A stretch of DNA of 64,000 bases from an uncultured virus (IMG/VR IMGVR_UViG_3300013108_000147) (taxonomy: Duplodnaviria > Heunggongvirae > Uroviricota > Caudoviricetes > Crassvirales). A program made the position numbers and the translations under genes. Below are positions 38,101 through 63,415 of this stretch, one piece after another (the stretch's first letter is position 1; the number at the start of each line of letters is the position of its first letter). The DNA lies in the IMG/VR virus record IMGVR_UViG_3300013108_000147; one strand, written 5' to 3'. The notes below the pieces were generated by a model, which made no database searches, was not told the origin of the DNA, and saw nothing but the letters and a program-made list of their open reading frames with translations.

Positions 38101-41100
38101 TCTAAAGGCACTGTACCTAACAATCCTCAGTTAGCAGAAATATTCTCTAAGTTCAAAGATTGGTTAACTGATATATACAACGGCATAACAGATAGTTCTA
38201 TTGATATAGAGCTCAATCCTGCTATGGAGGCGATATATGAGAAGATGTTTACTCCTCAGAACAAAAACAGAAATGTCAATAAGGAAGTAAGAAAAATGCT
38301 TAGTGAAGGTAAGACTGCTAAAGAGATATTTGCAGAGTTTACATCTAAGAGTGAGAGAATGCAAGCTAAGAATATCCTTAAGAGACTGATAGCTCAACCT
38401 AAGACTCCTGAAGAGGCTTTAAAGGCAGCTAGAAAAAGTTACAATAAAGCTAAAGCAAAAGCTAAGGCTAAGAAACCTAAGAATATTTGGAAAGAAACAA
38501 TCTTTAATTTAGCTAAGTATTTTACTGATAAGCAGTATCTACCTAAGAGAATGCTTAAGAAAGCGGGCGGAGATTTAGTTAGAGATTATATGGTAGCATC
38601 TAAAGGTTCGCCAGGCTACGCTAAAAGATTGTTTGATAAAGCTTACAATAAAATATATAGAGGCTTAACTAAAGAGCAGATAGATGACCTTAATAAAATT
38701 ATATTACAAAGAAGGTTTATAGCTATAGATAAGAATAGAGCTAAGAGAGGTCTAGACCCTGTAACTCACTCTGATTTCCAAAATCAAGAGACTGCTGAAT
38801 TAACTTTAGAAGGTCTTAGAGAAGAGTTGGGAGATAAGGAGTTCAACGAACTTAATAAAAGAGCTACAGCGTACTTTTCTGAGTTTAAGAACTTACTAGA
38901 TATGATAGAGAAGGCGGGTATAGTTAACAAAGAATTTAGAGATAGTTTCTTTGATGTAGATTATCAACCTAGATTATTCTTACAGTTCTTGCAGACACAG
39001 GAGCAAGAGAACTCTATTCAAGAAATGGGAGCGCCTACATCTACGTCACTTACTTCTAAGCAAGTTCAAACTATGGAGAAAGGTAGTGACGAAGCTTTAG
39101 TAGTGGATTCTATGTACTTATTAGGAAGGTCTCTTAATATGAGAGCTAAGACAGTAGCTATGAACAGAACTACTACTAAACTTGCAGAGTTTATGAAAGA
39201 GAGATTAGACTACATTAAGAAAACAAAGAAGAGTATAAGTGAAGGTAAACTAAAAGGTAAAGAACTTAAGAAGGCTAAAAAAGATATTAAGTACTTCGAA
39301 GAATTACAAAGAAGAGTTAAACTTAACCCTATTATAGGTTTCACAGAGTCAGGTAACCCTAAGTATAGGTTTAAGCCTGAGCCAGGCGAGAGAATTGTTT
39401 CTTACTACGTTAATGGTGTTAAACATCAGATGATAATGGAAGAAACGTTCTATGACCAATATAACGATAACTTAAAAGGTGTGTTTACTAATAGTGACGT
39501 AAGAGAAAAAGCTGCTGTCTTATCCGGCACAGCACTTGTTAAGACTATAGCTACAGGTAATAACCCTGCGTTCTTCCTTACTAACTTCCCTAGAGATTTG
39601 TTCTTTGTAGCATCTTTCTCTAAGGAGTATGGTAGAAGGAATGGAGGAGTGTTCGGAGCATATAACCCTCTGTCTGCTATTTCAGTTCTTTGGGATTTTG
39701 GTAAGAGTGTATATGAAATTGCAGCTGCTAATAATACTAAATTTAAGTGGCTTAAAGATAATGGTAGTTTTGAGAAATTTGTAGAGTACGGAGGTATGTT
39801 GGATTTCTTACACACACAAGGAGAGTACAAAGGTACAAAAGGTCTTAAAGGACTGTATAACGATAAAGTTGGTAACCGAACTAAAGAGACCCTTAGCCTT
39901 GTAGGTGACGCTCTATCTCTTAAACCACTCCAAACTTATTCTGAAATAGGTTTCCGTTTAGCAGTTTTCAACAAGTCTCTTGCGAACTCTCTGAGACTTT
40001 CAGAGTATAAAGATATGAAAGACGTACCTGCTGATGTATTAGAAGAGTGGTATATTAGTGCTGTTGCGTCTGCTAGAAGTTTAACAGACTTTAGTCAAGG
40101 AGGTATTTACGCAAAAGATTTAGATGCTGTAGTACCTTACCTTAATGCGGGTATTCAAGGTACAAGGTCTGCTGTTGACGCTATAGCGGAATCACCTTCA
40201 GACACATTATATAGAATGCTTACAACAGGTTTCACGTTGACTGCTATACCTGTCGCAGCTTCAGCTCATCTTATAGCCGGGGCTAATTGGGGAGATGACG
40301 ACGAAGATATGAAAGGTTTGTCTGCGGGAGGCCAATACTTAAAAGCTTTAGAAGGTGTTAGTAGATATGATAGAATTAATTATCAAATTATTTTCACAGG
40401 GGATAAAGACGAGAGAGGTGAGTATAAATATGTTAGAATAGCTAAGCCACACTTCGTTACGCCTGCATCTATATTAGCTCATCACTTATTAGAGGAGTAT
40501 ATAAGACAAGATAATAATCTTTCACCTGCAGGAGAGCAGAAGCTGATTGAAGACTTATCATTTGCTTTTGAGAAGAATATATCTCCTGTAGAATTTAATA
40601 TACTAGGTAATACGGCTAGAACTCCTTTACTTAAAGCGGCATTAACTTACGCTTTAGGTTACGACTTCTACCGTGAGCAACCTTTATCTTATCAGAAAGG
40701 TAAAGTGGCTCCTGAAGCCGAAGGTTTTGAGTCTAGAGGTGTAGAAGATTTCTATAAAGCTATAGGAGAATATCAGCAAATGTCACCTGCTAGATTAAAG
40801 GGAGCTATTGAAAGTCTTATAACTACTCCGTCTACCTCTGCTTATGTTGCATTAGCTTATGGTGGAGCAGACGCTTTGTTCGCTGATAAAGATTTGAAGG
40901 GGCCTGCAGAAATAATGAGTGAAGCTCTTAAGAAAAGTGTTTCAGGCCGTCTTTTGAAAACTACTAGTGAGTTTAACAGAAGAGTAGATTGGGATAAGAG
41001 ACTTAAAAATGAGATTGTAGCTAAAGATGTAAAGAATCTTAAAGATAGGTACAGACTTAAAGAGTTGGCTATCCAAGAAAGGGACGGTAAGGTTACAAGA

Positions 41101-41400
41101 GGTGAGGTTATGGACTACTTGAAGAAGATAGGGAATGATAATCTTATGCAAATGAAGAGGTTGGCTAACGTGTATAAAGAAATGGTAGCTAACCCTAAGA
41201 TAGACCCTAACGTAGCTGATTTAAAATACAGAGACGATAAGGAGAGAGCTTTAATACTGACTGAAATCTTTGGAGAAGAGTTACTTAAAAAAGATACTTT
41301 TGCTAAAGATGAGAAGAAGTTATATGAAGAGCTTCTGAAGAATAAGATACTCAATAAAGGAACTATGTATGAGTACTTGAAGTTAATAGATAAACTATAA
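32149..41400 (+). CDS. Giant polyvalent/ejection protein (HExxH metallopeptidase-like and LPD38-like regions)
   Basis: 3083 aa; 'LHELAHV...EKFA', 'LIEEFQSDW', C-terminal 'VPYLNAGIQG...VRIAKP'. Confidence 0.65.
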   Translation: MNEEYLKGLHGHLGITDDYSTWVNAVQGDEEYLKGLHGHLGITDDYQTWASAVWGKTTADSMESRLDSVVQFSQSESEETNQEQEVTTSEETETFDTSFPEDMISQSKTENVIPSGDGTLVIGGEEISVEDMEISELYDAYKQAGYISQADVSEVEATIEAQAKGDFSTVETIKAYANTLMKYGPASGMHSPIFDYMDRDEALFARQQKNKVDFLNALPEDKVTELKEYAFNRTEQISADNLNVFAQNKLLESKIKTVVSDLEQMSLSMEKIKEDGGVLPKEAADEYLKAYKEAVSLQTTYKENTNILESNTEDLGETWEELDLLKRNYGGLDYYQEKLRLSAAHIAGGLVQLQAMAGNPATLTPDVELMYTMQKYREQVAADEDMLRPAMSVEQINGLEDFGMWAGEQIANQLPILLTLTATGGTSGLVLLSSSTAGSKAGEMTDSNVKGETNFSAGNILLTSIGHGAAEYLSERVSLGILSKGNRVIKSALKGKKPGAKIPTPEYSSIRTGVSNYAKKTWGAAWQEGSSEWANTLAQNMLDIAAGAEDVNPFDGALDAFASGAFMGKAMQTVPSVVGMAIRPFTRKEISKKIKSNLEDLEALAYMLETQDLSEASQNIVKRKMQNIMTQSESMINETLGETSKVGSKGLQRILEIEKRAGILRKSVKEIENSDLPTETKTQIKAEAKAEVDALRKEKENILDGSKQDGEKSRVQQELEAAIQGGVEVEQGGKGTAEVQGENAEARDTDTDSEGVRTDKQGDTKLDDGKATQTTAAKPETVDVEPLKKRKRQLEEELVDIEDDATAEKMEAEIEQLNTQISEASKVATPVVDNSAKIQAKDDATNQDVTDEVSNIQTKLQEAGKQKELDTLGDKYFKILEDQAKKEESGQELDRYDKARKTRAFNKIAKLGKELGIDPMYYLENKGALPKESAPKKAAPKKAAPKKAAPKKAAPKKPAAEKIIESFEKHVKSKGVTWKSMFAMEGEVYNELYDMISNKEITEEEYEAFKRRLNKAKDNVETKIAENQYGKGSLMHKLSQEIQKLYKKHKDTKVKLEKEIDDVVDKIYSLNRQSLDVDNMSERLKELDTLNKKRESLQAKIDEAERKYQDATNTFDAIEGTISAYGAITEGVDPRITILKKLEGFIKEFESTKNPTEQEKRFNAHNVEERNSIKNNLKDFPTKVPYKKKSLTQEDIESAFDLNPEQSEAAAIVSDIMIENMAAIEGISVEEMRKKIEFKKSNVAPDGSLKQDAESNVQPFYSLIGKAMSKLAKLQPSTPQVWVKKIVEEGGRGTKSESDLVKLETTLREYLEITNALKINKGKPKKTISYSEVLGVISETSNVDIRVIVKRSLTKPQLEAEERLWKRDGELEDKVEKLDEKIKKLKSELSESEMYTNPELAELTAQRAKAIVEVRKLFSHLKELNDQNVVYSSDSQYVLQGPEGGGRTEVIIALPYLDFKVMNEEHFQGVEDSIVGWTRNSVRVNPATNSKVLLIEEFQSDWAQNQRKYGVKGGPKQRELQRRESKYQKSAQYLETLVENYNDFLKKTFGQFAALRGYEKTFYGFLQKPLSPSDPMYTNFGFNHSFVANGLALPETMEFLAKVSEMQGRPATAKKLREAAKEAEYKISEMIGAQEMLNEDYIAIAEHMDYDSYFGKGAVAAHAEDIKEYTEFLKNMLSVGNLFSNVLTKIDPDFKDLAPNAIRIIYNNVTSIGALENFDSEVQRDGIQEGLAEMFEKEGFPNLKTHLDEVVSEVYNIIGAPIVSGIVTEYLEGTESNFMMFKERVYNPVEMPNPYAKNNAWIGLTFRKTLQMAIEQGLDQVAWTTGQQQSARWGQLEGKEKQGIEYFYNNMIPKEVLKEAKRYDKNAKVEVIDLDPSNKDNNLAVGKQLAITITPAMRMAIREGGVPLFQNGQSPQGAMSVKNGKYIVHAITNPNVTTPLHELAHVYEDYLTPEERQVVLGFAGKTQWDTETSEKFARGAEKYLSKGTVPNNPQLAEIFSKFKDWLTDIYNGITDSSIDIELNPAMEAIYEKMFTPQNKNRNVNKEVRKMLSEGKTAKEIFAEFTSKSERMQAKNILKRLIAQPKTPEEALKAARKSYNKAKAKAKAKKPKNIWKETIFNLAKYFTDKQYLPKRMLKKAGGDLVRDYMVASKGSPGYAKRLFDKAYNKIYRGLTKEQIDDLNKIILQRRFIAIDKNRAKRGLDPVTHSDFQNQETAELTLEGLREELGDKEFNELNKRATAYFSEFKNLLDMIEKAGIVNKEFRDSFFDVDYQPRLFLQFLQTQEQENSIQEMGAPTSTSLTSKQVQTMEKGSDEALVVDSMYLLGRSLNMRAKTVAMNRTTTKLAEFMKERLDYIKKTKKSISEGKLKGKELKKAKKDIKYFEELQRRVKLNPIIGFTESGNPKYRFKPEPGERIVSYYVNGVKHQMIMEETFYDQYNDNLKGVFTNSDVREKAAVLSGTALVKTIATGNNPAFFLTNFPRDLFFVASFSKEYGRRNGGVFGAYNPLSAISVLWDFGKSVYEIAAANNTKFKWLKDNGSFEKFVEYGGMLDFLHTQGEYKGTKGLKGLYNDKVGNRTKETLSLVGDALSLKPLQTYSEIGFRLAVFNKSLANSLRLSEYKDMKDVPADVLEEWYISAVASARSLTDFSQGGIYAKDLDAVVPYLNAGIQGTRSAVDAIAESPSDTLYRMLTTGFTLTAIPVAASAHLIAGANWGDDDEDMKGLSAGGQYLKALEGVSRYDRINYQIIFTGDKDERGEYKYVRIAKPHFVTPASILAHHLLEEYIRQDNNLSPAGEQKLIEDLSFAFEKNISPVEFNILGNTARTPLLKAALTYALGYDFYREQPLSYQKGKVAPEAEGFESRGVEDFYKAIGEYQQMSPARLKGAIESLITTPSTSAYVALAYGGADALFADKDLKGPAEIMSEALKKSVSGRLLKTTSEFNRRVDWDKRLKNEIVAKDVKNLKDRYRLKELAIQERDGKVTRGEVMDYLKKIGNDNLMQMKRLANVYKEMVANPKIDPNVADLKYRDDKERALILTEIFGEELLKKDTFAKDEKKLYEELLKNKILNKGTMYEYLKLIDKL
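32153..32296 (+). repeat. Tandem 81-bp-period coding repeat (EEYLKGLHGHLGITDDYxTW x2)
   Basis: Near-identical DNA copies at about 32153 and 32234. Confidence 0.85.
34948..35019 (+). repeat. 15-bp tandem repeat encoding (AAPKK)n
   Basis: gcacctaagaaagca, about 5 copies. Confidence 0.9.
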
Positions 41401-43538: not shown

Positions 43539-45101
43539 TTAGTTTCTAGCTACAACTGCGTCAGTGGTCAAAAACGCACCTGCAACAGATACAGCGTTAG
43601 TTAGCGCAGATTTTGTAACCTTCTTAGGGTCAACTATACCTGCTTCAATCATGTCTACAAGTTCTCCTGTATTAACATCGATACCTTCTGTAGGTTTAGC
43701 AAAACTCATTAAGTCCGTGCTATCTATACCCGCATTAGCTAATATCTGCTCAAACGGAGCGCTAAGAGACTCTAACAACATAACGTAACCTTTAACGAAA
43801 GATTCGCTATTTTTAGTAGGGACTTCTCTTAGTAAGTTAAGAGAAATATCTAGTAGTGTTACACCACCACCGGCAACGATACCTTCTTCAAGGGCCGCTC
43901 TAGTAGCGTTGATACCATCTTCAATTCTATCTCTCTTCTCGATAAGCTCGCTATCTGATGAAGCACCGATATGAAGAGTTGCAACTCCTCCGCTGATTCT
44001 AGATAAACGCTCTTGCAAGTCTTTACGCTCTATGTCGTTGTTCTCAGCTTTAATTCTAACTTTAAGCTCTTCGATAGTTTCTGTCAAGTTGCCTTGATTA
44101 CCGATAAGAATACTGCTACTTACATCAGCTATAAACTTATCCACTCTGCCTAAGGCTTCAGCTCCTAAAGAAACACCTGTCTCAGACGCTACAATCTTAG
44201 CTCCTGATAGCTTAGCTACGTCTGATAGAATGTCAGAGTTAATTTTAAGAATCTGAGGAGTTCTCACTACACAAATCTTACCTCGTATAGCTCCGCTATC
44301 TACGTTACTACGTATTGTAGAGAATACAAAAGGGTCGATGTCGTCACAAATAATCACTAAAGAGTTATGAGGATTGTCCGCGCTCCATACTGCGTTAAAC
44401 ATTTCTACTAAGTTATCTCCTCTCTCTATCTTACCTTTGTAAAGTAATAAGTAAGGATTCTCAAGGGCACACTCATATTTGATAGGGTCTGTAACAAAGA
44501 TAGGGTCTATAAAACCATTATCTAATTGTATACCTTGACCTACTTCGATAGTAGTCTCCCTAGTGTCAGATGGCTTAGTGATAACTAAACCGTGCTCACC
44601 AATCTTAGAGAAAGCTTCTGCTATTAAGTTACCTAAATCTTTATCTCCGTTAACAGATATAGTGGTAACATCTGAAAGGTTATCATTAGAAACTTGTATA
44701 GCTCTTGAGTCTAACTCAGCTAAAACATCCTCTAAAGCTGCGTCCATACCTCGTTTGAGTTGTATGGCTGAGGCTCCTTCTTCTAATGCTTGCAACCCTG
44801 CGTTGAAAATACTCTGAACAAGTACAGAGGCTGTAGTTGTGCCGTCACCTGCTTTAGTGTTTGTTCTACCTGAAGCCTCCTTAACTATAGATGCCCCAAT
44901 CTCCTTGAAACGACCTACAGGGTCGATACTTCTTGCAATAGATACTCCGTCCTTAGTGGTGATGTATCCGCCCTCTCCTACAGGTATGATTACTGTCCTA
45001 CCTTCGGCTCCCATAGAAACTTTCACTGTGTCAGCTACTTCGTCTACTCCTTTTTTTAATTCTTGTCTCGCGTCGTCAGCGAATTTAATTACTGTTTTCA
45101 T
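43539..45101 (-). CDS. groEL: Chaperonin GroEL
   Basis: 'TKDGVSIA', 'AGDGTTTA', 'EEGIVAGGG', 'GIVDPKKVT'. Confidence 0.95.
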   Translation of the reverse strand: MKTVIKFADDARQELKKGVDEVADTVKVSMGAEGRTVIIPVGEGGYITTKDGVSIARSIDPVGRFKEIGASIVKEASGRTNTKAGDGTTTASVLVQSIFNAGLQALEEGASAIQLKRGMDAALEDVLAELDSRAIQVSNDNLSDVTTISVNGDKDLGNLIAEAFSKIGEHGLVITKPSDTRETTIEVGQGIQLDNGFIDPIFVTDPIKYECALENPYLLLYKGKIERGDNLVEMFNAVWSADNPHNSLVIICDDIDPFVFSTIRSNVDSGAIRGKICVVRTPQILKINSDILSDVAKLSGAKIVASETGVSLGAEALGRVDKFIADVSSSILIGNQGNLTETIEELKVRIKAENNDIERKDLQERLSRISGGVATLHIGASSDSELIEKRDRIEDGINATRAALEEGIVAGGGVTLLDISLNLLREVPTKNSESFVKGYVMLLESLSAPFEQILANAGIDSTDLMSFAKPTEGIDVNTGELVDMIEAGIVDPKKVTKSALTNAVSVAGAFLTTDAVVARN

Positions 45102-45103
45102 AC

Positions 45104-45373
45104 TTAATCTAAAATTGCTATTATATTACCTGCTTGAATTATGAAATGGTCTTCGCCATTATGTTTACATTTCCCCGGCTCTCTAGGCTCTAAGTAGTGG
45201 ACAAAATCGCCTGGTTCAGTCACATCTACTTTCTCTCCCACTAAAACAACTTCCGCTACGGGAAGGCTTAGTCCGTCATCTTTAATCTCTAGACCTCCTT
45301 CGGTCTTAATGGTGCCTGCTAATCTTTTTAGCAACACTCTTCCGTTAACTACTTTGGTTACGTTCTTACTCAT
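45104..45373 (-). CDS. groES: Co-chaperonin GroES
   Basis: 'RVLLKR...KTEGGL...AEVVLVG...PGD.V...IIAIL', directly upstream of groEL. Confidence 0.85.
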   Translation of the reverse strand: MSKNVTKVVNGRVLLKRLAGTIKTEGGLEIKDDGLSLPVAEVVLVGEKVDVTEPGDFVHYLEPREPGKCKHNGEDHFIIQAGNIIAILD

Positions 45374-57197: not shown

Positions 57198-58073
57198 TTA
57201 ATTATATTTTTTGTTATACCAAGCTAACTTGTTTAAATCTAGCTTAGCGTTATTAGACTTCATGCTTCCTCCGTTTATAAACAGTTTGATTGCTTTTTCT
57301 TTGTTTATAATGTTATTGGATTTGTTGTCTTCCTTAGGTGACCAACCTAGTCTAAGTATGTAGTTGAGTAGTGCGTCATTACTGATGTTGCTTAAGTCTA
57401 TCTCATCGGAATCTCTCTTAGACAACTTCTTTCCTGAACTGTGGCATACTAAACCTACGTGTGTAAATTTAGGTAAATCTTTTTCAATTACAAAACTTTC
57501 GTTCAATAATTTCCAAATTAATGTTTGTTTATACGTATTAGATATGTGGTCTACTCCGCGAACTATCCACGTTACATCTTCATCGTAGTCGTCTACTGTA
57601 GATGCAAAGTTGTATGCCGGTGAGCCGTCAGACTTCATTATAACTTGTTCTGAGGCGTACCCTGCAATTTGGTCGTTAGCTTTCTTTAAACCTGTCAAAG
57701 TATCTGTCCAACTACAAGCGTCAACTTTAGTGGTTCCGTCGTAAAGTTCGTAACCTTTATTAAGTCTTATACATCCGTCATCTTCGATAGCCATACCTAA
57801 TTCTACAAGTTGATTAGCTACTTCTCTATATCTGCCAAACCTCTCAGACTGCTTGAAAGTCTTGTCGTAGTCTAGACCAAGCCGTGATAGTGAATCAAAT
57901 ATGGGTTGTATAAGTTCCTCTCTACTACGTGTTAAGTCAGTGTCATCAACACGGACTATAAACTTAGAGTTTGTGTCTTGCTTAGATATAAGCCAATTGT
58001 GGTAAGCTGTTCTAAGTGTACCTATGTGTAACATACCAGTAGGTGATGGTGCTATTCTAACTATTTCTGCCAT
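57198..58073 (-). CDS. Glutamyl-tRNA synthetase-like protein, catalytic domain only
   Basis: 'RIAPSPTGMLHIG', 'RVDDTD..R', 'QSER', 'YNFASTVDD', 'VRGVDH', 'KKLSKR', 'LGWS'; 291 aa, no anticodon-binding domain. Confidence 0.9.
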   Translation of the reverse strand: MAEIVRIAPSPTGMLHIGTLRTAYHNWLISKQDTNSKFIVRVDDTDLTRSREELIQPIFDSLSRLGLDYDKTFKQSERFGRYREVANQLVELGMAIEDDGCIRLNKGYELYDGTTKVDACSWTDTLTGLKKANDQIAGYASEQVIMKSDGSPAYNFASTVDDYDEDVTWIVRGVDHISNTYKQTLIWKLLNESFVIEKDLPKFTHVGLVCHSSGKKLSKRDSDEIDLSNISNDALLNYILRLGWSPKEDNKSNNIINKEKAIKLFINGGSMKSNNAKLDLNKLAWYNKKYN

Positions 58074-58077
58074 TGTT

Positions 58078-58455
58078 TTAAAGTATTATTAATGTGTCGT
58101 ATAAACTGTTTTGTTCTTCTTTTGATAGAGAGTTCATAAAGTATTTGATATCTGATATATCTTCTAGCGTCTCTATAGCGCTTCTGACGTGGTGATTCGG
58201 GTCGTACACCTCTTTGAATAAAGATATAGCTTTGTTAACACTCGTTATACCCTCATCTAATTTAAGATGTTTGCCTATGCTTTTATTGTTCATAAGCATT
58301 TGGTCGTAATATAAATCCTCTACCCAAAGGTAGTTGTGGATTATCATAAGAAATCTTTGCGCCTTTTTCGCGTCTTTCACGTGGCTTTTATAACCTAGAA
58401 GTCTTATGTATCTTCTAAGAGCCTTTTGTCTATTTCTAATATCTTCTCTTGTCAT
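58078..58455 (-). CDS. Hypothetical protein
   Basis: 125 aa. Confidence 0.5.
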   Translation of the reverse strand: MTREDIRNRQKALRRYIRLLGYKSHVKDAKKAQRFLMIIHNYLWVEDLYYDQMLMNNKSIGKHLKLDEGITSVNKAISLFKEVYDPNHHVRSAIETLEDISDIKYFMNSLSKEEQNSLYDTLIIL

Positions 58456-58540
58456 TATTTCTGTTTTATTTCTTCAAAATGTATTTTATGGTAGCGACAT
58501 TCGTGTCGTTAGCATCGGCTTCAATTTTTATACAGAGCCG

Positions 58541-58738
58541 TTACCACCCATAAGAGTTGTACATTTTTACTATATCCTCTCTTGTTATAGTTGTGTCTTC
58601 CATAAATTCACCATAACCAAACATTTTGTGTTCATAGTGAAATTTTTGTGACTTAGATAATTTATTCCACCACTTAATAGCTTTATTACGTGTGGTAACA
58701 CCACCTAAATTTAATTTATTCTCTTCGTTCATAAACAT
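58541..58738 (-). CDS. Cassette ORF, hypothetical
   Basis: Stop TAA lies in the TAAC core at 58540-58543; starts within the hairpin. Confidence 0.55.
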   Translation of the reverse strand: MFMNEENKLNLGGVTTRNKAIKWWNKLSKSQKFHYEHKMFGYGEFMEDTTITREDIVKMYNSYGW

Positions 58739-58759
58739 AATTTTAGCTTAACCGTTGTA
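58692..58759. repeat. attC-like site 1
   Basis: GTGGTAAC...ctaaatttaatttat / ataaacataattttag...cGTTGTA. Confidence 0.65.
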
Positions 58760-58764
58760 AGTAA

Positions 58765-59058
58765 TTAAAGGTTCATTTCTTTTATTTTCATATAAACCAT
58801 CATTAGTTCAAACAAACTATAACTTGTTTTCTTATAAAGGTATATATTTTCTCCTTGTACGCTTACATACTTTTCACACCAATCATCAAAGGTCAGTTCC
58901 TTTTTGCTCTTTAACTCCGTACAACAATGTGTATAATTAATAGCTTCTATATCGTTCATTAAACAAGCTACTGTTTTAATTGTTTTTTTGTCTGCATCAG
59001 CTTTTTCTATGTAAAAATCTATTACTCTTTGCAATATCTGTTTCTTATAATTATCCAT
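58765..59058 (-). CDS. Cassette ORF, hypothetical
   Basis: 97 aa; starts in the loop of site 2 and reads through the arm (INYTHCC). Confidence 0.55.
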   Translation of the reverse strand: MDNYKKQILQRVIDFYIEKADADKKTIKTVACLMNDIEAINYTHCCTELKSKKELTFDDWCEKYVSVQGENIYLYKKTSYSLFELMMVYMKIKEMNL

Positions 59059-59116
59059 TTTTATTATTTTTAGTTATTATTCAAGCTACTAATCATACAC
59101 TCGTCCGTTATGCACC
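58920..59116. repeat. attC-like site 2 (long loop)
   Basis: TACAAC; arm gtgtataattaatagctt (58929-46) pairs 16/18 with aagctactaatcatacac (59083-100); cGTTATGC. Confidence 0.75.
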
Positions 59117-59296
59117 ATTACGCAAACTCTTACCTTGCTCTTTCGCCAAAGTTTTTAGTGTTTCCTTTTTTATTAAAATACCCTTACAAGGCATTGTTCT
59201 GCAAATTGTTTCACAGCCTTCTCTTTCCAATAAATCTAAACCGCATTTAGTGCAAGGTATCCTACCAAGTTCATTGTAAGTATCTACTACATCCAT
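59108..59296 (-). CDS. Cassette ORF, Cys-rich hypothetical
   Basis: CxxC motifs; stop in the TAAC core. Confidence 0.5.
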   Translation of the reverse strand: MDVVDTYNELGRIPCTKCGLDLLEREGCETICRTMPCKGILIKKETLKTLAKEQGKSLRNGA

Positions 59297-59317
59297 TTTT
59301 TACAATTTAAAATTAAC

Positions 59318-59365
59318 GGTGCATAACACCATATAAAATTCATTTCGTTCCTCCCGTTAGCCACA
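59318..59365. repeat. attC-like site 3 (right arm apparently missing)
   Basis: GGTGCATAAC-accatataaaattcatttcgttcctccc-GTTAGCC. Confidence 0.55.
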
Positions 59366-59566
59366 ATTAACAGGTTGCTCTTTTGCCATTGTAGCGTTTT
59401 CTAAAATACTTATAGCTTGGTTTAGTTCTGAGATAGCATCTAAATCAGCATCAGTATCGGGGCAAGGTGCATCTATCTTACAGTTTCTTTTTATAAAACT
59501 ATTTTCTATAAACGTATCCTTTGCTTTTTCTCGTTGTTCTTTTAGTTGTTGAATAATTCTTTCCAT
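59357..59566 (-). CDS. Cassette ORF, hypothetical
   Basis: Likely start MERIIQ at 59566; an in-frame upstream ATG lies in the site-4 loop; stop in the TAAC core. Confidence 0.5.
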   Translation of the reverse strand: MERIIQQLKEQREKAKDTFIENSFIKRNCKIDAPCPDTDADLDAISELNQAISILENATMAKEQPVNCG

Positions 59567-59573
59567 AATTAAA

Positions 59574-59680
59574 TTAACTGTGGCTAACACAAAAGATAGT
59601 GAATAGCCGATTAAACATTTGTTTTTCATAGCCAAGTTTAAGGTGTCGGCTACTCACCATATTCAAGCACGTTGTAGTTA
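59574..59680. repeat. attC-like site 4
   Basis: TGTGGCTAAC; atagtgaatagccga (59596-610) pairs 13/15 with tcggctactcaccat (59646-60); cGTTGTAG. Confidence 0.75.
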
Positions 59681-59890
59681 ATGTTTTTTACGAAACTTTC
59701 GCCATTTAATTTTAATCCATTCTACTAACACAATCACACCAAAGGCAAGTATTAATATCCCAAATATTGATAAACCTATTACGTCTTTCCAATTCCAAAA
59801 CATTGTTGTATCGTTACCGCAAGAGGTAAAAAACACTAACAACAACATTGTATATAGTGCATAGCTTGTTTTTGTTCTTAATCGTTTCAT
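59678..59890 (-). CDS. Cassette ORF, putative lipoprotein/membrane protein
   Basis: 'LLLVFFTSC' lipobox-like plus a TM helix; starts in the site-5 loop. Confidence 0.55.
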   Translation of the reverse strand: MKRLRTKTSYALYTMLLLVFFTSCGNDTTMFWNWKDVIGLSIFGILILAFGVIVLVEWIKIKWRKFRKKH

Positions 59891-59973
59891 TTTGCTTTTT
59901 ATTTAAGTTATTTATAAATCATTATTTCGTGCTATAAGGTCGCTACGACACCATACACTAAGCGTTGTGTGTA
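59837..59973. repeat. attC-like site 5
   Basis: TAACAACAAC; gtatatagtgcatagc / gctacgacaccatacac; cGTTGTGT. Confidence 0.7.
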
Positions 59974-59976
59974 ATG

Positions 59977-60363
59977 CTATACTTGCTTGTTAATTTCCTT
60001 AAAACACAATATACACTCAGGGTATTGTCTTCTACTATTAAAACTATAAAAACCGCCTTCCATATATTGTTTCCACAATTCACTTTTTCTTTTAATTTCT
60101 AAAACATCTACCAATAAAAATTTATTAGGATTTAATTTTACAAAATCCCAAGATTTTTTATCTAAAAATCCTTTAAAATCACCACTTTGTTTTAATGAGT
60201 TGTAATAATTACCTTCATTAATAGTGATAAAAGTTCCTCCGTATTCTCTTGTAAAAGTGTTAAGTTTTACTTTGTTTCCTTTTGATATTACAACTTGTTT
60301 TAAATCTTCTTTTGTCAGTTTTTCAGTATAAAATCTTTTTCTAAGTTTTGAAAGTTCACTCAT
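59977..60363 (-). CDS. Cassette ORF, hypothetical
   Basis: 128 aa, very AT-rich, entirely inside one unit. Confidence 0.55.
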   Translation of the reverse strand: MSELSKLRKRFYTEKLTKEDLKQVVISKGNKVKLNTFTREYGGTFITINEGNYYNSLKQSGDFKGFLDKKSWDFVKLNPNKFLLVDVLEIKRKSELWKQYMEGGFYSFNSRRQYPECILCFKEINKQV

Positions 60364-60396
60364 TATTTCTATATATCATTAATTAATAATCCGCAC

Positions 60397-60463
60397 TACA
60401 CACAACAATATGTATAGTGCATTTTCGTGCCTCAAACGACACCATACACTCAAAGTTAGCCAC
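60397..60463. repeat. attC-like site 6 (short)
   Basis: TACACACAAC-aatatgtatagtgcattt-tcgtgcctc-aaacgacaccatacactcaaa-GTTAGCC. Confidence 0.75.
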
Positions 60464-60728
60464 AATTAAATGCCTTTAACGTCTCTTCTATCATTGTTTG
60501 CCCTACGTAAGTATGTGTACTTTCATTAAATCTGTCTGCCAAATCATTTAACAGTTCACGTTGTTGGCTAACATCAGATAAAACAAATTCTATGTCATTG
60601 TCATTTATCCGATGGTCTGACCAAGTAATCGCACTTTGAAACAAATCATTCCAATCTGTTGTGCTCTTGTCTATTGTTACATCACTGCCTTCAATTTGTA
60701 GGTATATTTTTTTAGGTATATTTTTCAT
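60456..60728 (-). CDS. Cassette ORF, hypothetical
   Basis: Likely start MKNIPK at 60728 in the site-7 loop; reads through the arm (LSDVSQQR); stop in the TAAC core. Confidence 0.55.
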   Translation of the reverse strand: MKNIPKKIYLQIEGSDVTIDKSTTDWNDLFQSAITWSDHRINDNDIEFVLSDVSQQRELLNDLADRFNESTHTYVGQTMIEETLKAFNCG

Positions 60729-60764
60729 AATCAAACTTGTTTTATCTGTGATACGTTGTATCAC
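60565..60764. repeat. attC-like site 7 (long loop)
   Basis: TGGCTAAC; cagataaaacaaatt (60575-89) pairs 14/15 with aacttgttttatctg (60734-48); cGTTGTAT. Confidence 0.75.
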
Positions 60765-60766
60765 AT

Positions 60767-61000
60767 TTATGGTTGTTTAAATACATTGTCTGCCCACTTA
60801 ATATATTTCAAAGCATAATCAACACCTGTTAATATATAAGCTAAGTTTAGAGGTACTGCCAACACAATAAACACGATTGATAAGACAAGGTTTCCTACTG
60901 CATATCTTAAACGTGCTACAACACCGTATAAACTTAATTTAGGTTTCTTTTCTAATCCTAAACTTTTAATCATATATTCTGCGTCTATTTCTTTTTTCAT
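60767..61000 (-). CDS. Cassette ORF, membrane protein
   Basis: TM helix; crosses the half-site GTGCTACAAC at 60913-22 (LYGVVAR). Confidence 0.55.
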   Translation of the reverse strand: MKKEIDAEYMIKSLGLEKKPKLSLYGVVARLRYAVGNLVLSIVFIVLAVPLNLAYILTGVDYALKYIKWADNVFKQP

Positions 61001-61020
61001 AATTTCTGTTATTTAATTCA

Positions 61021-61434
61021 TTACACATCAATCAACTCGAATGATTTAGCATTTCTTGTTTTATCGTTCCAATATTTTTTGTTTAGTTCGTAAGCATCAG
61101 ACATTCTCAAACCCATAGTTTCAGCAAGTATGTAGAATGGTTTAGTTAAGTAGTTAAATGCTAATGTCATTTCTGTTGCATCTCCTTCAAAAATTACTTC
61201 TTTTTTGTCGTTTAAAATTTGTTTCATATCACTTCGTTGGCTAACAATAGATACACTCAAATTTTTAACCTTAGCTTCGAGCCATTCTACGTATTCATCA
61301 CAAAAACCATCTTCATAAGGTGTTTGTCCTGCGTAATCCTGTCTAACAGCCATCACACCATATCCGTTTTCTTTTTTAAACTTTTCTCTTAAATCCATAT
61401 TTACTTCTTTTTTGTCGTTTAAAATTTGTTTCAT
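61021..61434 (-). CDS. Hypothetical protein with duplicated N-terminus
   Basis: MKQILNDKKEV occurs twice. Confidence 0.5.
   Translation of the reverse strand: MKQILNDKKEVNMDLREKFKKENGYGVMAVRQDYAGQTPYEDGFCDEYVEWLEAKVKNLSVSIVSQRSDMKQILNDKKEVIFEGDATEMTLAFNYLTKPFYILAETMGLRMSDAYELNKKYWNDKTRNAKSFELIDV
61194..61434. repeat. 34-bp perfect direct repeat (61194-61227 and 61401-61434)
   Basis: ttacttcttttttgtcgtttaaaatttgtttcat x2. Confidence 0.9.
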
Positions 61435-61606
61435 CGCTCAATGTGGTTAAAAATTAACTTCATCACCCAAGCATTTTCAAACTCATACATACCACAAACT
61501 AAACGCGCTTCTTCTGCTGTTTCGTAGTAGTTAATTTTTCCGTTTTCGTCTTTCATATAGTCCATATTTCTAAGGTCTATAATTACATATTTGTTTTCCA
61601 TTCCGT

Positions 61607-61807
61607 TCATCTTGTTAGTTTTGAGTTAACTACATCGATAATAACCCAATCGTGAGCACCCTCTTTTTTAAATTCTTCTAACTCTCTTTCAGAGTCTAAG
61701 TAAAAGAAAATGTCATCGTCATCTTCTTCTATGTCTCCGATTTTTAGAACCATATCGTCTTGTATGTTTCCGTCATCTAACCATTTTATCGTTGCTATAA
61801 ATCTCAT
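61607..61807 (-). CDS. Hypothetical acidic protein
   Basis: Likely start MRFIAT. Confidence 0.45.
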   Translation of the reverse strand: MRFIATIKWLDDGNIQDDMVLKIGDIEEDDDDIFFYLDSERELEEFKKEGAHDWVIIDVVNSKLTR

Positions 61808-61885
61808 TTTAATCCCTTTTAATTTGTAAAACAATTTAATTCCACCCTTACACTTTGAGTGAGGGCTGATAGTGAATCGCTAATA

Positions 61886-62236
61886 TTAAACATTAAAACG
61901 ATTATATTCTTGAATAAATTCTACTACTGCCTTATATGTATCTTCTATAGTCCATATGTTTTCGTACCCCTCTGTAAGTTTTGAGAATGTTTCATCAAAT
62001 GGTGTGTTATAGTAATCATCCCCTATCTTTTGGACTACTGGCATCAGCCAATCCCAAGAGGTGTGGTATTTTAAATCACTAATTCTTTTAACGGCATAAG
62101 TACCACTTGGCAAACCCTCACTTCCTTTTACGCAAAGGATTCTTGATTCTCCTATTGTTTGTGGCAGGTTAATTAAATTTGGTACACTTGATGGTATACC
62201 ACTCATAAATTCTGCAATAAGTTTATTGTATTCCAT
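61886..62236 (-). CDS. Hypothetical phage protein
   Basis: 'NKLIAEFM...LKYHTSWDWLMPVV.KI...YKAVVEFI' motif, recalled from Bacteroidota phages. Confidence 0.6.
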   Translation of the reverse strand: MEYNKLIAEFMSGIPSSVPNLINLPQTIGESRILCVKGSEGLPSGTYAVKRISDLKYHTSWDWLMPVVQKIGDDYYNTPFDETFSKLTEGYENIWTIEDTYKAVVEFIQEYNRFNV

Positions 62237-62278
62237 GATTGTAATTTTTAAGTCTTAGGTTTTTTCGTTTAAAATAAA

Positions 62279-62298
62279 GCCCCCTATCTCTAGGGGGC
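62279..62298 (-). terminator. Terminator-like hairpin downstream of the peptidase gene
   Basis: GCCCCCTA-tctc-TAGGGGGC; T-rich tail on the - strand. Confidence 0.6.
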
Positions 62299-62338
62299 AG
62301 GTTAACAATTAAAACAAATAAAACAAATAAACAATATT

Positions 62339-63415
62339 TTAAAACGGTAAGTCTCCGTGTTCGTCAGTATCTTCTAGTAGCTCTTCTTCGTAAAAACCTT
62401 CGAAACTGTCTTTTGTCCAATCTTCTACTTCGTCATCAGATATGTAGTCTTGACAACCGTGGCACCAATGCATTTGGACTGTTTCGTCATACTCTAGCTC
62501 TCCGTATGTGCCACAAGACATACAGACTAAGTCGTCAGTATTACTAACATTGTTGCTTTCGGTGTCTACGAAGTCGTCATCATAGTAGTGGTCAAAGTAT
62601 CTTGAACCTCCGCCGTATTTGTGGTATCTAGACGTTGCCCATTGTGATAAGACCTCTCTGTCTGCAGTTTTGATAGTGAACTTTGTGCCACCTAAGTTGT
62701 CTATAACATCTTGGACAAAGTCTGCAGTTCTAAACACTTCGCTTATGATTATGTACTCATTGTCAGTGTGGGGGTCGTAGTATCCGCAAGACATATTTGC
62801 TACAGATACTTCTAAGCCATTCTTGGTTAACTGATATACATCTGTCAATCCTCCGTCAGCCTCTACCCTATCGTATTGTGCTAAGTAGGGTGCTACTGCT
62901 TGAGAGAATTCATCGCTATATAGTTTAGTGCTATAGATTGAAGATACAAAGTCTGCGTAACCTCGTCTATCACACTGAAGGACAAACCCTACATCTGAGA
63001 AGAAGGACATAAGAGCCACGCTACTGCCTACACAACCTACTTCCTCGTCTCTGAAGAACGCAACCTTTATGTTGTCAGTGTTGATAAGTGCTTGAAGGGC
63101 TACAAATATACCTACTTTATCGTCACCACCTATACCTACTCTCTCGTATTTATCGTTGATAGCGTAGAGTGCATCTTTATGGCGTTTAACATGAAATTCT
63201 TTCTCTATATCATGTACTGTGTCTGTGTGAGCTACTACGCAAGGGTAAGCGTCTGACTCACCTTTTGTTGCGTAGATGTTACCCTTGTTTTTACAAACCC
63301 TTACACCGGGGATAGTTGATATATAGTCTATTAAAAACTTGTTCATTTGTTTGGTATTGTAGCTAGTAGTTTGTACTGCCATTACCGATTTTAAATCTTT
63401 TAATCTGCTTTCCAT
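62339..63415 (-). CDS. M28/M20-type zinc exopeptidase with acidic Zn-ribbon tail
   Basis: 'AHTDTV', 'GGDDKVG', 'DEEVG', 'CDR', 'GYYDPHT..E'; CxxC...CxxC; ends DLPF. Confidence 0.8.
   Translation of the reverse strand: MESRLKDLKSVMAVQTTSYNTKQMNKFLIDYISTIPGVRVCKNKGNIYATKGESDAYPCVVAHTDTVHDIEKEFHVKRHKDALYAINDKYERVGIGGDDKVGIFVALQALINTDNIKVAFFRDEEVGCVGSSVALMSFFSDVGFVLQCDRRGYADFVSSIYSTKLYSDEFSQAVAPYLAQYDRVEADGGLTDVYQLTKNGLEVSVANMSCGYYDPHTDNEYIIISEVFRTADFVQDVIDNLGGTKFTIKTADREVLSQWATSRYHKYGGGSRYFDHYYDDDFVDTESNNVSNTDDLVCMSCGTYGELEYDETVQMHWCHGCQDYISDDEVEDWTKDSFEGFYEEELLEDTDEHGDLPF

What the first reader, a model, noticed from the sequence alone, without database searches (positions are those of the whole stretch)
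58541..61000. ORFs are woven into the recombination-like sites: starts inside hairpins, stops on the TAAC core
Seen: four ORFs stop on the TAA of the core (ends 58541, 59108, 59357, 60456), and the other four stop 7-13 nt from it. At least four ORFs begin inside a hairpin (58738, 59058, 59890, 60728) and translate through the arm and GTT core, giving the junction peptides LGGVTTR, INYTHCC, LYTMLLL and LSDVSQQR. The half-sites give LYGVVAR and VSIVSQR. Three loops are expanded to about 75-145 nt and hold the leader and N-terminus. Inference: the sites double as coding sequence. If crossover occurs at the core that the ORF crosses, reshuffling would join different N- and C-terminal halves, a combinatorial source of small proteins. 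If it occurs at the other core, each cassette carries an inverted gene that begins in its own att site.
Basis: partly seen in the sequence, partly recalled or inferred. Interest (0 to 1): 0.8.

Follow-up and report, generated by a model that had tools for sequence, protein, structure and literature searches.

The report
Phage gene cassettes spliced through recombination sites
In this marine phage, small early genes sit in integron-like cassettes whose hairpin recombination sites are themselves translated, so swapping cassettes between phages joins different front and back halves of small proteins.

Summary
Window 58.5-61.0 kb (genes on the minus strand) is an array of at least 8 small cassettes. 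Each is bounded by its own inverted repeat (GTTR-arm ... arm'-YAAC). Between cassettes lie attC-like folded sites: R''-spacer-L''-loop-L'-spacer-R'. All 8 ORFs stop on or within 15 nt before a YAAC core, against 1 of 70 elsewhere in the window stopping on TAAC.

At least four ORFs start between the cores and read in frame through L' and the GTT core. For ORF 58765-59058, 27 metagenome homologues keep the N-terminal 46 aa but carry unrelated C-termini, and one keeps the C-half with another N-half. Across 64 metagenome loci the 27-nt junction is invariant even at synonymous positions, joining 43 N-modules to 65 C-modules. A second junction (VSQQRELL) behaves the same way.

Cassette ends covary, stems covary with two fixed G.T pairs, and assembly graphs of four runs branch at the sites.

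attC-like sites in a related Polaribacter phage are published (CALIN). The systematic in-frame weaving and N/C shuffling were not found in print by three of my five literature searches. The enzyme and the crossover point remain unknown.

The parts
58540..58549 (-). R''(A): GGGTGGTAAC. The TAA (58541-58543) is the stop of ORF A.
58541..58738 (-). ORF A (65 aa). The start lies between R''(B) and R'(A), and it reads through R'(A) as LGGVTTR.
   Evidence: Its one homologue (L313, 89% identity) spans the whole ORF.
58690..58699 (-). R'(A): GTTACCACAC, inverted repeat of R''(A)
58754..58766 (-). R''(B): AATTACTTACAAC. It overlaps the stop of ORF B (58765-58767) by two bases.
   Evidence: The same end is found on most C-modules of the family.
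58765..59058 (-). ORF B (97 aa): N-module (residues 1-37) encoded in the site loop, then the junction EAINYTHCC, then the C-module in the cassette.
58921..58947 (-). 27-nt invariant junction GAAGCTATTAATTATACACATTGTTGT. It holds L' at 58929-58944 and the first five bases (GTTGT) of R'; the R' arm as a whole spans 58909-58925.
59085..59100 (-). L'' of site C>B: GTGTATGATTAGTAGC. It pairs with L' over 16 bp with 2 G.T. The 140-nt loop (58945-59084) holds the leader, ATG 59058 and the N-module.
59107..59119 (-). R''(C): AATGGTGCATAAC. The TAA (59108-59110) is the stop of ORF C (59108-59296).
59314..59337 (-). R'(C) GTTATGCACCGTTA preceded by TTTATATGGT (a 'half-site' with no L partner)
59356..59370 (-). 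R''(D): TTAATTGTGGCTAAC. The TAA (59357-59359) is the stop of ORF D (ATG at 59566; ...NCG*).
59579..59680 (-). Compact full site E>D: R''(E) - GTGCTT - L'' (59646-59664) - 35-nt loop - L' (59592-59610) - TGT - R'(D) GTTAGCCACA
   Evidence: CM hit of 53.1 bits, E 2e-7. Fold z -3.0. 82% identical to an intergenic element of Cellulophaga phage phi18:3.
59671..59691 (-). R''(E), a 21-nt arm complementary to R'(E) at 59826-59846. It overlaps the stop of ORF E (59678-59890).
   Evidence: I3: 21 nt, 90%
59826..59958 (-). Site F>E, inner part: L'' GTGTATGGTG(TCGTAGC) (about 59942-59958), a loop holding ATG 59890, L' (GCTATG)CACTATATAC (59850-59865), and R'(E) (59826-59846). ORF E reads through as SYALYTMLLL.
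   Evidence: The RNA fold shows the attC-like shape. The DNA fold does not.
59964..59977 (-). R''(F): GCATTACACACAAC, directly after the TAG stop of ORF F (59977-60363)
60397..60464 (-). Compact full site G>F: R''(G') TGTGGCTAAC - TTTGA - L'' GTGTATGGTG - 20-nt loop - L' CACTATACAT - ATT - R'(F) GTTGTGTGTAGTGC (60393-60406)
   Evidence: CM hit of 35.9 bits, E 3e-4. Near-identical sites occur in 5 IMG/VR contigs. The MFE prefers an L'/R'(F) hairpin.
60456..60728 (-). ORF G (90 aa from the ATG). Its N-module is joined through LSDVSQQRELL to a 37-aa C-module ending NCG*, on the TAA of R''(G') (60455-60469).
60549..60572 (-). Junction / R'(G'): GTTAGCCAACAACGTGAACTGTTA (VSQQRELL)
   Evidence: Contigs of two of the four runs (X3, X4) diverge at 60541 (X3 only) and at 60575.
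60755..60764 (-). R''(H): GTGATACAAC, 2 nt after the stop codon (60767-60769) of ORF H (60767-61000); complementary to R'(H)
60913..60943 (-). L' (CCTAAATTAAGTTTATACGG, 60924-60943) and R'(H) GTTGTAGCAC (60913-60922), inside ORF H (KPKLSLYGVVAR). The L'' arm is missing in the window.
61021..61434 (-). ORF I (137 aa). It has junction VSIVSQR (R' at 61229-45) and a 33-nt direct repeat (61195-61227, 61402-61434) that gives MKQILNDKKEV twice. It looks like two units fused in frame.
   Evidence: (D2, D17)

Best explanation
Window 58.5-61.0 kb is an array of small mobile gene cassettes in the early-gene arm of an uncultured marine phage of the Cellulophaga/Polaribacter-phage kind. The array is built on integron-like (attC-like) folded recombination sites that have been recruited as coding sequence.

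Shown:
1. Each cassette has its own terminal inverted repeat, GTTR-arm ... arm'-YAAC.
2. Between cassettes lies a site of the form R''(YAAC) - 4-6 nt - L'' stem arm - loop - L' stem arm - 0-4 nt - R'(GTT). The L stem covaries freely and has two fixed G.T pairs on the sense strand.
3. ORFs end on or just before the R'' core.
4. In several sites the loop is enlarged. It then carries an A-rich leader, a start codon and an N-terminal module of about 20-50 aa that is read in frame through L' and R' into the cassette.
5. In nature the N- and C-modules occur in many combinations, joined by a junction that is invariant at the DNA level.

Inferred: exchange happens at the sites by a structure-specific, single-strand recombination of the integron type. 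The recombinase is not encoded in the window, so it may be host-borne, from a co-infecting phage, or of an unknown type. Each exchange then gives a startless cassette a promoter-proximal leader, a start codon and a new N-terminal module. In some cases the loop ORF instead stops just past the core and may act as a coupling ORF.

What the small proteins do is unknown. By position they are early, accessory host-takeover or anti-defence candidates.
For: Cassette inverted repeats in the window:
- 5 GTT..AAC-anchored repeats of >=12 nt, against 0 in 18 control segments and a simulation mean of 0.16.
- The repeats tile 60922>58540.

Cassette-specific covariation of the two ends in relatives:
- Own ends match at 8.0 of 13 positions beyond the core, against 5.5 for shuffled partners. 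The maximum was 6.07 in 1000 shuffles, with 44 C-modules.
- This includes a compensatory change in the core itself, GTTCT/AGAAC (rows L149, L148).

Site structure:
- RNAalifold on 27 sites from other phages gives 19 pairs, 10 with compensatory changes. G.U is fixed at two columns (26/27 and 27/27).
- With sites picked by outer motifs only, 50 of 96 have >=7 of 8 inner pairs, against 5.8% with shuffled partners. There are 61 G.T wobbles against 1 A.C, so the fold is strand-specific.
- A covariance model holding no window sequence finds 59579-59680 (E 2e-7) and 60397-60464 (E 3e-4). 5 of its 10 best hits lie in 58690-60464.

Coding overlap: stops lie on or near YAAC in 8 of 8 region ORFs, while 1 of 70 ORFs outside stops on TAAC. 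In the VSQQR family, 43 of 92 stop on the TAA of TAAC and 36 stop 1-12 nt before.

Shuffling.

DNA-level constraint: the 27-nt junction is 93-100% conserved per column, synonymous sites included, in 61 distinct contexts. These were found with degenerate peptide patterns.

Population level: Logan contigs of 4 runs of one study end or branch at the sites. One form joins 58751 to 59105, removing the ORF B unit, in 3 runs.

Literature: a CALIN with two predicted attC sites is reported around the methyltransferase genes of Polaribacter phage P12002L, and one site recombined with attI1 under IntI1 in E. coli (PMC9892861, section 3.4 and passages read). The same site architecture is seen there, including an ORF (gp037) that starts in a loop.
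Against: Recombinase:
- No tyrosine recombinase was found in the 64-kb window (Pfam). The 7 kb upstream in the near-identical record G001 holds only ORFs under 190 aa.
- Only 1 of 4 complete site-bearing viral genomes has a PF00589 protein, and it is not IntI-like.

Crossover point and linkage:
- Breakpoints are seen at both R' and R''. Canonical integrons cut only at G|TT.
- The site downstream of a given C-module is not constant, unlike an integron cassette and its attC.
- The A/G polymorphism 3 nt before the GTT core travels with the C-module in 16 of 22 pairs. With the N-module it is 173 of 336 pairs, about the roughly 50% expected if unlinked. This places the exchange at or 5' of the canonical G|TT. 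The pairs are not independent.

Structure:
- The fixed G.T pairs favour the sense strand, that of the mRNA. Canonical integrons recombine the bottom strand.
- The expanded-loop sites do not fold better than shuffles.

Other:
- All joints have short sides (19-34 nt), come from contigs, and could belong to other phages in the sample.
- No expression or protein data exist for any of these ORFs.
- ORF A's only homologue is unshuffled.
Confidence: 0.6

Rival explanations
1. There is no site-specific enzyme. The conserved 13-35-nt segments (the R'' end, the L''-leader, the 27-nt and VSQQRELL junctions) act as homology 'linkers'. General or phage-encoded homologous recombination swaps modules at these linkers during co-infection, as proposed for PeSL motifs of T4-type phages. 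The in-frame junctions persist because only in-frame products survive.
For: Breakpoints fall at every conserved segment, both R'' and R'. No recombinase is linked to the arrays. The junction polymorphism sits closer to the 3' end of the conserved block and travels with the C-module, as uniform crossover within the block would predict. PeSL precedent: PMC2839356 and PMC4122927 (search listing and abstracts only).
Against: It does not explain why each cassette's two ends are complementary to each other and covary cassette by cassette. It does not explain why the L stems covary with fixed G.T pairs on one strand. It does not explain why a related site is a substrate for IntI1 (PMC9892861). Linkers of 13 nt are short for homologous exchange.
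Confidence: 0.27
2. The hairpins are primarily mRNA elements of the early transcripts, serving stability, processing or translational control. For example, a loop ORF may open the stem for the next gene, as with ORF-11 of attI1 or the short ORFs in attC. Their conservation for that purpose makes them passive hotspots of mosaicism.
For: The fold is favoured on the sense strand: 61 G.T against 1 A.C, and G.U pairs are fixed. With RNA parameters site F>E adopts the full R/L structure. In one contig the loop ORF stops one codon after the junction and the next gene has its own ATG (L391), like a coupling ORF. For the precedent, passages of the review PMC8876359 were read.
Against: An RNA role does not explain the cassette-specific inverted repeats that flank whole ORFs, nor the DNA-level exchange. 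No Rfam family matches. The stem's 3' arm lies inside coding sequence, so a processing site there would cut the message. This role is not exclusive of the best explanation.
Confidence: 0.12
3. Chance and over-called ORFs: AT-rich DNA with many short ORFs and coincidental GTT/AAC palindromes.
For: Folding energies of three of the six stretches folded as DNA are within the shuffle range. The ORFs are short and have no family matches.
Against: Repeat statistics. Stop-codon placement. Independent model hits. Hundreds of homologous junctions in other contigs, with open frames on both sides.
Confidence: 0.01

Closest known systems
Integron attC sites and CALINs (clusters of attC lacking an integrase), including the CALIN reported in Polaribacter phage P12002L (PMC9892861)
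   Same: Order stop - R''(..YAAC) - spacer - L'' - variable loop - L' - spacer - R'(GTT..) downstream of an ORF. Each cassette begins and ends with complementary core-plus-arm sequences. Compact sites are 50-105 nt. The stem is imperfect with fixed non-Watson-Crick positions. Arrays of small genes all point one way. No integrase is nearby, as in a CALIN. A site of the related phage recombines with attI1 under IntI1.
   Different: R arms are 10-21 nt rather than 7. There are fixed G.T pairs instead of extrahelical bases, and they favour the sense strand. Loops reach 140 nt or more and hold a leader, a start codon and an N-terminal module. L' and R' are read in frame. Breakpoints also occur at R''. 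The 27-nt junction was found in only 1 contig of 185,579 species genomes, so this is a phage-borne pool, not a bacterial integron pool.
ORF-11/ORF-18 of attI1, short ORFs inside attC, and fused cassettes of class 1 integrons (review PMC8876359, passages read)
   Same: A short ORF with its own initiation region lies in the recombination site and crosses the crossover point. The stop or the continuation is supplied by whatever cassette is inserted. Startless cassettes borrow an upstream start. Occasional fusion proteins arise, for example gcuF1-blaOXA-28.
   Different: Those cases are regulatory or accidental, with one ORF per platform. Here dozens of different N-modules sit in attC-like loops and are joined in frame to dozens of C-modules as the regular architecture.
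PeSL (promoter-early stem-loop) mobile regulatory cassettes of T4-type phages (PMC2839356, PMC4122927; listing and abstracts seen)
   Same: Conserved stem-loop motifs flank small, variable early genes in hyperplastic regions and mark the boundaries of modular exchange between phages.
   Different: PeSLs are intergenic promoter/terminator motifs that swap whole ORFs. They are not translated, do not give N/C chimeras, and are not described as carrying cassette-specific inverted ends.
Shufflons and invertible tail-fibre segments (Rci/sfx, Gin/Cin) - recalled, not looked up
   Same: Recombination sites lie inside coding sequence, and a constant N-terminal part is joined to alternative C-terminal segments.
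   Different: Those systems invert segments within one locus of one genome using a dedicated, adjacent recombinase. Here the modules are exchanged among genomes, both halves vary, and no recombinase is adjacent.

Membership tests
Integron attC site | Inverse core R'' (RYYYAAC) and core R' (GTTRRRY) at the two ends | tested here: met
   YAAC and GTTR cores are present at every junction. AAC/GTT are invariant in 27 related sites. The purine/pyrimidine pattern beyond four bases is not kept strictly.
Integron attC site | Imperfect hairpin: R box, unpaired central spacer, L box, variable terminal loop | tested here: met
   The consensus has an R box of 4-5 bp, spacers of 4-6 nt and 0-4 nt, an L stem of 14 or more bp with 10 covarying pairs, and a variable loop.
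Integron attC site | Extrahelical bases that set strand choice, with the bottom strand recombined | tested here: inconclusive
   No conserved bulges were found. Instead there are two fixed G.T pairs on the sense (top) strand, which would be A.C mismatches on the bottom strand. Which strand is used cannot be told from sequence.
Integron attC site | Length about 57-141 nt | tested here: inconclusive
   Compact sites measure 50-105 nt. Expanded-loop sites reach about 190 nt. The length range is recalled, not from a call.
Integron attC site | Detected by the curated attC models (IntegronFinder CM, HattCI) | not testable with these tools
   Those models are not in Rfam (no hit) nor in any tool here. 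The paper reports HattCI/Infernal hits in P12002L. Its supplement with coordinates could not be read.
Integron attC site | Recombined by an integron integrase at G|TT | not testable with these tools
   This is published for one P12002L site with IntI1 (PMC9892861, section 3.4). It has not been done for the window's sites. The natural breakpoints seen here are not confined to G|TT.
Complete integron | intI gene, attI site and Pc promoter beside the array | tested here: not met
   No tyrosine recombinase was found in the window. The adjacent 7 kb holds only ORFs under 190 aa. The window's only recombinase is a serine recombinase at 1949-2653, 55 kb away. About 3 kb of the genome was not seen.
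CALIN | Two or more attC sites within a few kb, without an integrase | tested here: met
   Two model-supported compact sites lie 0.7 kb apart, with at least five further junctions of the same build. This holds only if the sites are accepted as attC-like.
PeSL cassettes | Stem-loop followed by an early promoter, strictly intergenic | tested here: not met
   L' and R' lie inside ORFs at four or more junctions. No promoter was tested. No sequence likeness was examined.
Shufflon / invertase system | Adjacent dedicated recombinase and inversion of segments between inverted sites in one locus | tested here: not met
   No adjacent recombinase was found. No inverted forms appeared among the contigs laid.

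The most novel reading that the evidence does not exclude
Marine Flavobacteriia-type phages carry their own integron-like cassette system. In it the attC-like site is a protein-coding linker: its loop supplies the leader, start codon and N-terminal domain, and its L'-R' arm is a fixed in-frame splice peptide. Structure-specific recombination, by an as yet unidentified and non-IntI enzyme able to act on either strand, then assembles two- and three-module early proteins combinatorially from a shared pool of N- and C-modules. This would be a DNA-level 'exon shuffling' device for phage accessory proteins.
Probability: 0.35. Interest if true: 0.9.

Novelty: new variant of a known kind. Interest (0 to 1): 0.78.

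Why it matters
Integron recombination is understood as moving whole, promoterless genes. Here the same kind of site is systematically translated and used as an in-frame joint. Cassette exchange therefore creates new proteins, not just new gene orders.

The evidence is already quantitative. 43 N-modules and 65 C-modules occur in 79 combinations around one 27-nt junction, and a second junction family has 80 N-modules and 66 C-modules.

This bears on several questions:
- It gives a concrete mechanism for the mosaic 'ORFan' early regions of marine phages.
- It shows how startless cassettes can be expressed.
- It extends the recent report of attC sites in virulent phages from two sites to a widespread, phage-borne pool.
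- It poses a clear enzymological question: which recombinase acts, and on which strand.

Cultured relatives exist (Cellulophaga phi18:3 and phi46:3, Polaribacter P12002L), so the idea is directly testable.

Tried and rejected
Searches that found nothing:
- tblastn of ORFs B, G and I against 50,697 phage records gave no match.
- PHROGs and Pfam on 18 proteins of the region gave only partial or weak hits.
- Rfam on 58000-62500 at E<=1 gave no family.
- tRNA scan of the 7 kb upstream record gave none.
- The protein atlas for ORF B scored below 0.8 with TM below 0.45, so it names nothing.
- Earlier findings of this scan: none on record.

Records not available:
- The window's own assembly is not held.
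- The nearest record, G001, is a fragment that stops at window position 47452 and lacks the region.

Scans that were uninformative or noisy:
- The IMG/VR scan with the ORF B alignment found only junction-level matches, 8 loci.
- The scan for the H-type N-module DNA found only the P12002L record.
- The scan with the 14-mer TAATTGTGGCTAAC is mostly chance at that length. It was used only as a source of low-GC contigs.
- A generic hairpin scan gave many false sites, so I replaced it with motif-anchored tests.

Sequencing runs: no RNA holder is listed for the region, so nothing can be said on expression. The runs are contigs only, so rare excision products cannot be seen.

Ideas rejected or left untested:
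- A Bacteroidetes promoter reading of the TATGGTG/TATAAA motifs was considered by eye only. It was not tested, and I do not claim it.
- IS200/IS605-type ends were considered and dropped because the arms are cassette-specific inverted repeats.
- A terminator reading was dropped because there are no T-runs after the stems.

Supplement: the supplement of PMC9892861 with the P12002L attC coordinates could not be read. I cannot say which of the sites seen are the paper's attC1 and attC2.

Full report
**What the window is.** The 64-kb window (36.8% G+C) is most of a tailed-phage genome.
- Structural genes lie on the plus strand from 1.9 to 41.4 kb. They include a crAss-type muzzle domain, a head-tail connector and a 3083-aa ORF.
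- Replication and early genes lie on the minus strand from 41.5 kb to the end.
- It comes from marine metagenomes. Four runs of one study hold the region at 0.94-0.97 of sampled words.
- Its only DNA-level relatives among 50,697 phage records are short patches of 48-100 nt in Polaribacter phages P12002L/S and Cellulophaga phages phi18:3 and phi46:3. These are 82-92% identical.
- All three patches start or end at the sites discussed below. That was the first hint that the sites are mosaic boundaries.

**Anatomy.** Read on the coding (minus) strand, the stretch 60922>58540 is tiled by eight units.
- Each unit is bounded by its own inverted repeat, GTTR-arm ... arm'-YAAC. The arms are 10-21 nt long.
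- The arm sequences differ from unit to unit: ACCAC, ATGCACC, AGCCACA, a 21-mer, GTGTGTAGTGC, AGCCAAC, GTAGCAC, GTACGGAG.
- Such GTT/AAC-anchored repeats of >=12 nt number 5 here. There are 0 in each of 18 other 3.1-kb segments. The simulation mean is 0.16 and the maximum 3 in 400.
- Between units lies a site of constant build: R'' (arm'-YAAC), 4-6 unpaired nt, an L'' arm (typically G[TG]NTA[TA]G...), a loop, the complementary L' arm, 0-4 nt, then R' (GTT...).
- Two sites are compact: 59579-59680 with a 35-nt loop and 60397-60464 with a 20-nt loop.
- Two have enlarged loops. One is 140 nt (58945-59084). The other is about 78-89 nt and holds ATG 59890.
- The rest are partial ('half-sites').

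**Is the site family real?**
- I collected sites from other contigs and aligned 27 of them, none from the window.
- RNAalifold gives an R box and a 14-bp L stem. 10 of 19 pairs show compensatory changes. Two columns are G.U in 26/27 and 27/27 sequences.
- Those sites had been picked for pairing, so I ran a control that picks sites by the outer motifs alone. 50 of 96 then have >=7 of 8 inner pairs, against 5.8% when partners are shuffled. There are 40 different inner arms. Wobbles are 61 G.T against 1 A.C. The fold is therefore selected, and on one strand only, the sense strand.
- A covariance model built from the 27 foreign sites finds the two compact window sites at E 2e-7 and 3e-4. It puts 5 of its 10 best hits inside 58690-60464.
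- By energy, the compact sites beat shuffles (z -3.0 and -2.7). The expanded ones do not, although their L stems appear in the centroid or MFE.

**The observation itself.**
- Four ORFs end on the TAA of TAAC, and the other four end 1-10 nt before a CAAC. Outside the region 1 of 70 ORFs stops on TAAC.
- ORFs from 58738, 59058, 59890 and 60728 start between R'' and R' and read through the GTT core. ORFs from 61000 and 61434 read through half-sites.
- For A, B, G and H the part after the core has no usable ATG for most of its length, so a downstream start is not an escape (by inspection).
- For E, an ATG overlaps the core. For I, an ATG follows the junction by two codons.

- ORF B (58765-59058) has 27 homologues in the 5.8-billion-protein set. 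Their first 46 residues are nearly invariant. Everything after INYT[HR]CC is unrelated and of varied length.
- One protein (P0003) has the window's C-half behind a different N-half.
- A metagenome scan with degenerate peptide patterns gave 64 loci, holding 72 junction ORFs.
- The 27 nt GAAGCTATTAATTATACAC[A/G]TTGTTGT are 93-100% conserved per column in 61 distinct contexts, synonymous positions included. Only position 20 varies.
- 81 distinct proteins fall into 43 N-clusters and 65 C-clusters in 79 combinations. 12 N-clusters have two or more C partners, and 10 C-clusters have two or more N partners. The sample is seeded by the window's N-module.
- Upstream of the start, nearly all loci carry YAAC-N6-GTGTATGATTAGTAGCG plus an A-rich leader. 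This L'' pairs with the L' inside the junction over 16 bp with two G.T.

**The second junction.** GTTAGCCAACAACGTGAACTGTTA (VSQQRELL) occurs in 107 IMG/VR stretches.
- 84 complete proteins give 80 N-clusters and 66 C-clusters. 14 C-clusters have two or more N partners.
- 43 of 92 stop on the TAA of ..TGGCTAAC.

**The other window ORFs.**
- The N-module of ORF H recurs in P12002L, L146 and L128 with three further unrelated C-halves, and there with a complete L''/L' stem.
- ORF I's N-half recurs in L280 and L073 with other C-halves.
- ORF A's single homologue is intact.
- L' and R' are read in at least three frames in different families: INYTHCC, CTIHNVV and LYTMLL.

**What speaks for site-specific, integron-like exchange.**
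- The two ends of each C-module cassette are complementary over about 20 nt and covary cassette by cassette. Own ends match at 8.0 of 13 positions against 5.5 for shuffled partners, and no shuffle out of 1000 reached 6.1. One family carries a compensatory change in the core itself, seen in rows L149 and L148. That is what is expected if both ends derive from one folded site, as in integron cassettes.
- The order stop-R''-L''-loop-L'-R' is the canonical attC order.
- Qi et al. 2023 (PMC9892861) predicted a CALIN with two attC sites around the methyltransferase genes of P12002L. They showed that one recombines with attI1 under IntI1. That region has the same sites, including an ORF (gp037) starting in a loop and a cassette with 10-nt perfect ends.
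- In the four runs that hold the window, Logan contigs end or branch at the sites: 58727-58756, 59105-59134, 59310-59355, 59950-59979, 60383-60423, 60541-60575 and 60754-60783.
- A form joining 58751 to 59105 is present in three runs. It removes the ORF B unit between two AACGG repeats. Its short side is 25 nt and the data are contigs, so this is a hint, not proof.

**What speaks against a canonical integron.**
- No tyrosine recombinase was found in the window. The 7 kb upstream holds only ORFs under 190 aa.
- Only 1 of 4 complete site-bearing viral genomes has a tyrosine recombinase, and it is Xer-like at best.
- Breakpoints occur at R'' as well as R'.
- A given C-module is followed by different sites.
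- The junction polymorphism travels with the C-module, in 16 of 22 pairs against 173 of 336.
- The 27-mer occurs in only one contig, a Saprospiraceae MAG and probably phage, among 185,579 species genomes. The pool is therefore phage-borne.
- Homologous exchange at the conserved linkers, and an RNA role for the sense-strand hairpins, remain live. They are not mutually exclusive with the best explanation.

**Comparison with what is in print.**
- The integron literature knows ORF-11 and ORF-18 of attI1, which cross the crossover point. It also knows short ORFs in attC that relieve the stem-loop barrier, and occasional fused cassettes (PMC8876359, passages).
- T4-type phages have PeSL motifs that bound swapped ORFs (listing and abstracts).
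- Three of my five searches bore on this question; the other two covered Cellulophaga-phage repeats and PeSL motifs. None of the three found a description of attC-like sites that regularly carry start codons and N-terminal modules in their loops. None described N/C module shuffling at such sites. Subscription journals are not covered by the library.

**Verdict.** The thing is best filed as a new variant of the integron-cassette principle in phages. The enzyme, the strand and the exact crossover point are open, and no expression data exist.

Noticed in passing
window 61021-61434 (-), repeats 61195-61227 and 61402-61434: A 33-41-nt direct repeat makes the peptide MKQILNDKKEV appear twice in one ORF. 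It occurs at the N-terminus and again right after the VSIVSQRSD junction. It looks like two units fused in frame with no stop between them.
   Followed up: partly
window 58486-58533; L003 3001-3048: A 48-nt intergenic element downstream of R''(A) is 92% identical to Cellulophaga phage phi46:3. It holds an imperfect 12-bp hairpin around GACA-CGAA-TGTC. In phi46:3 it also sits between a GTT..AAC-bounded cassette and the next gene.
   Followed up: partly
loci (e.g. L047, L081, L110, L112, L133, L158, L198): A second recurrent element follows many cassette ends. It consists of one or two short hairpins with the loop CGTTTTAATG (..acGTTTTAATGtg..), often in tandem. It was not analysed.
   Followed up: no
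window 1949-2653 (+) and 2715-3587 (+): A serine recombinase (Resolvase N-terminal domain plus the start of a Recombinase domain, 234 aa) is followed by a 290-aa ORF with no family hit. This may be a split or unusual large serine recombinase. It is the only recombinase seen in the window.
   Followed up: partly
window 57198-58073 (-): A 291-aa protein has a class I Glu/Gln tRNA-synthetase catalytic domain (Pfam E 6e-50). It is too short for a full GluRS and lies next to the cassette array.
   Followed up: no
window 43539-45373 (-) and 13452-14030 (+): Phage-encoded chaperonin pair: a Cpn60-like protein of 520 aa and a Cpn10-like protein of 89 aa. A second Cpn10-like domain sits at the end of a 192-aa structural-arm protein.
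   Followed up: no
window 32149-41400 (+): A single 3083-aa ORF without any Pfam hit at E<=1e-4, lying downstream of a crAss muzzle-domain gene (28411-29151) and a few small ORFs. By position it is a candidate giant virion protein.
   Followed up: no
window 62275-62305: A G+C-rich hairpin, AGCCCCCTATCTCTAGGGGGC, lies between the peptidase-like gene and ORF 61886-62236 and looks like a terminator. It is unlike the AT-rich attC-like sites.
   Followed up: no
L391 3893-4033 (+) (contig of a Saprospiraceae MAG): Here the loop ORF ends one codon after the junction (..EAINYTRCCR*), and the next gene has its own ATG 22 nt later. This is a natural example of the N-module as a stand-alone short ORF crossing the core. 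The 10.9-kb contig is probably a phage contig binned into the MAG.
   Followed up: partly
L001 (P12002L) 1106-1113 and 2482-2490: R''(GCAGGTAAC) of one site and the matching R'(GTTACCTG) lie 1.4 kb apart, with two cassettes (the gp038 methyltransferase and gp037) between them. It looks as if those cassettes had been inserted into a pre-existing single site.
   Followed up: no
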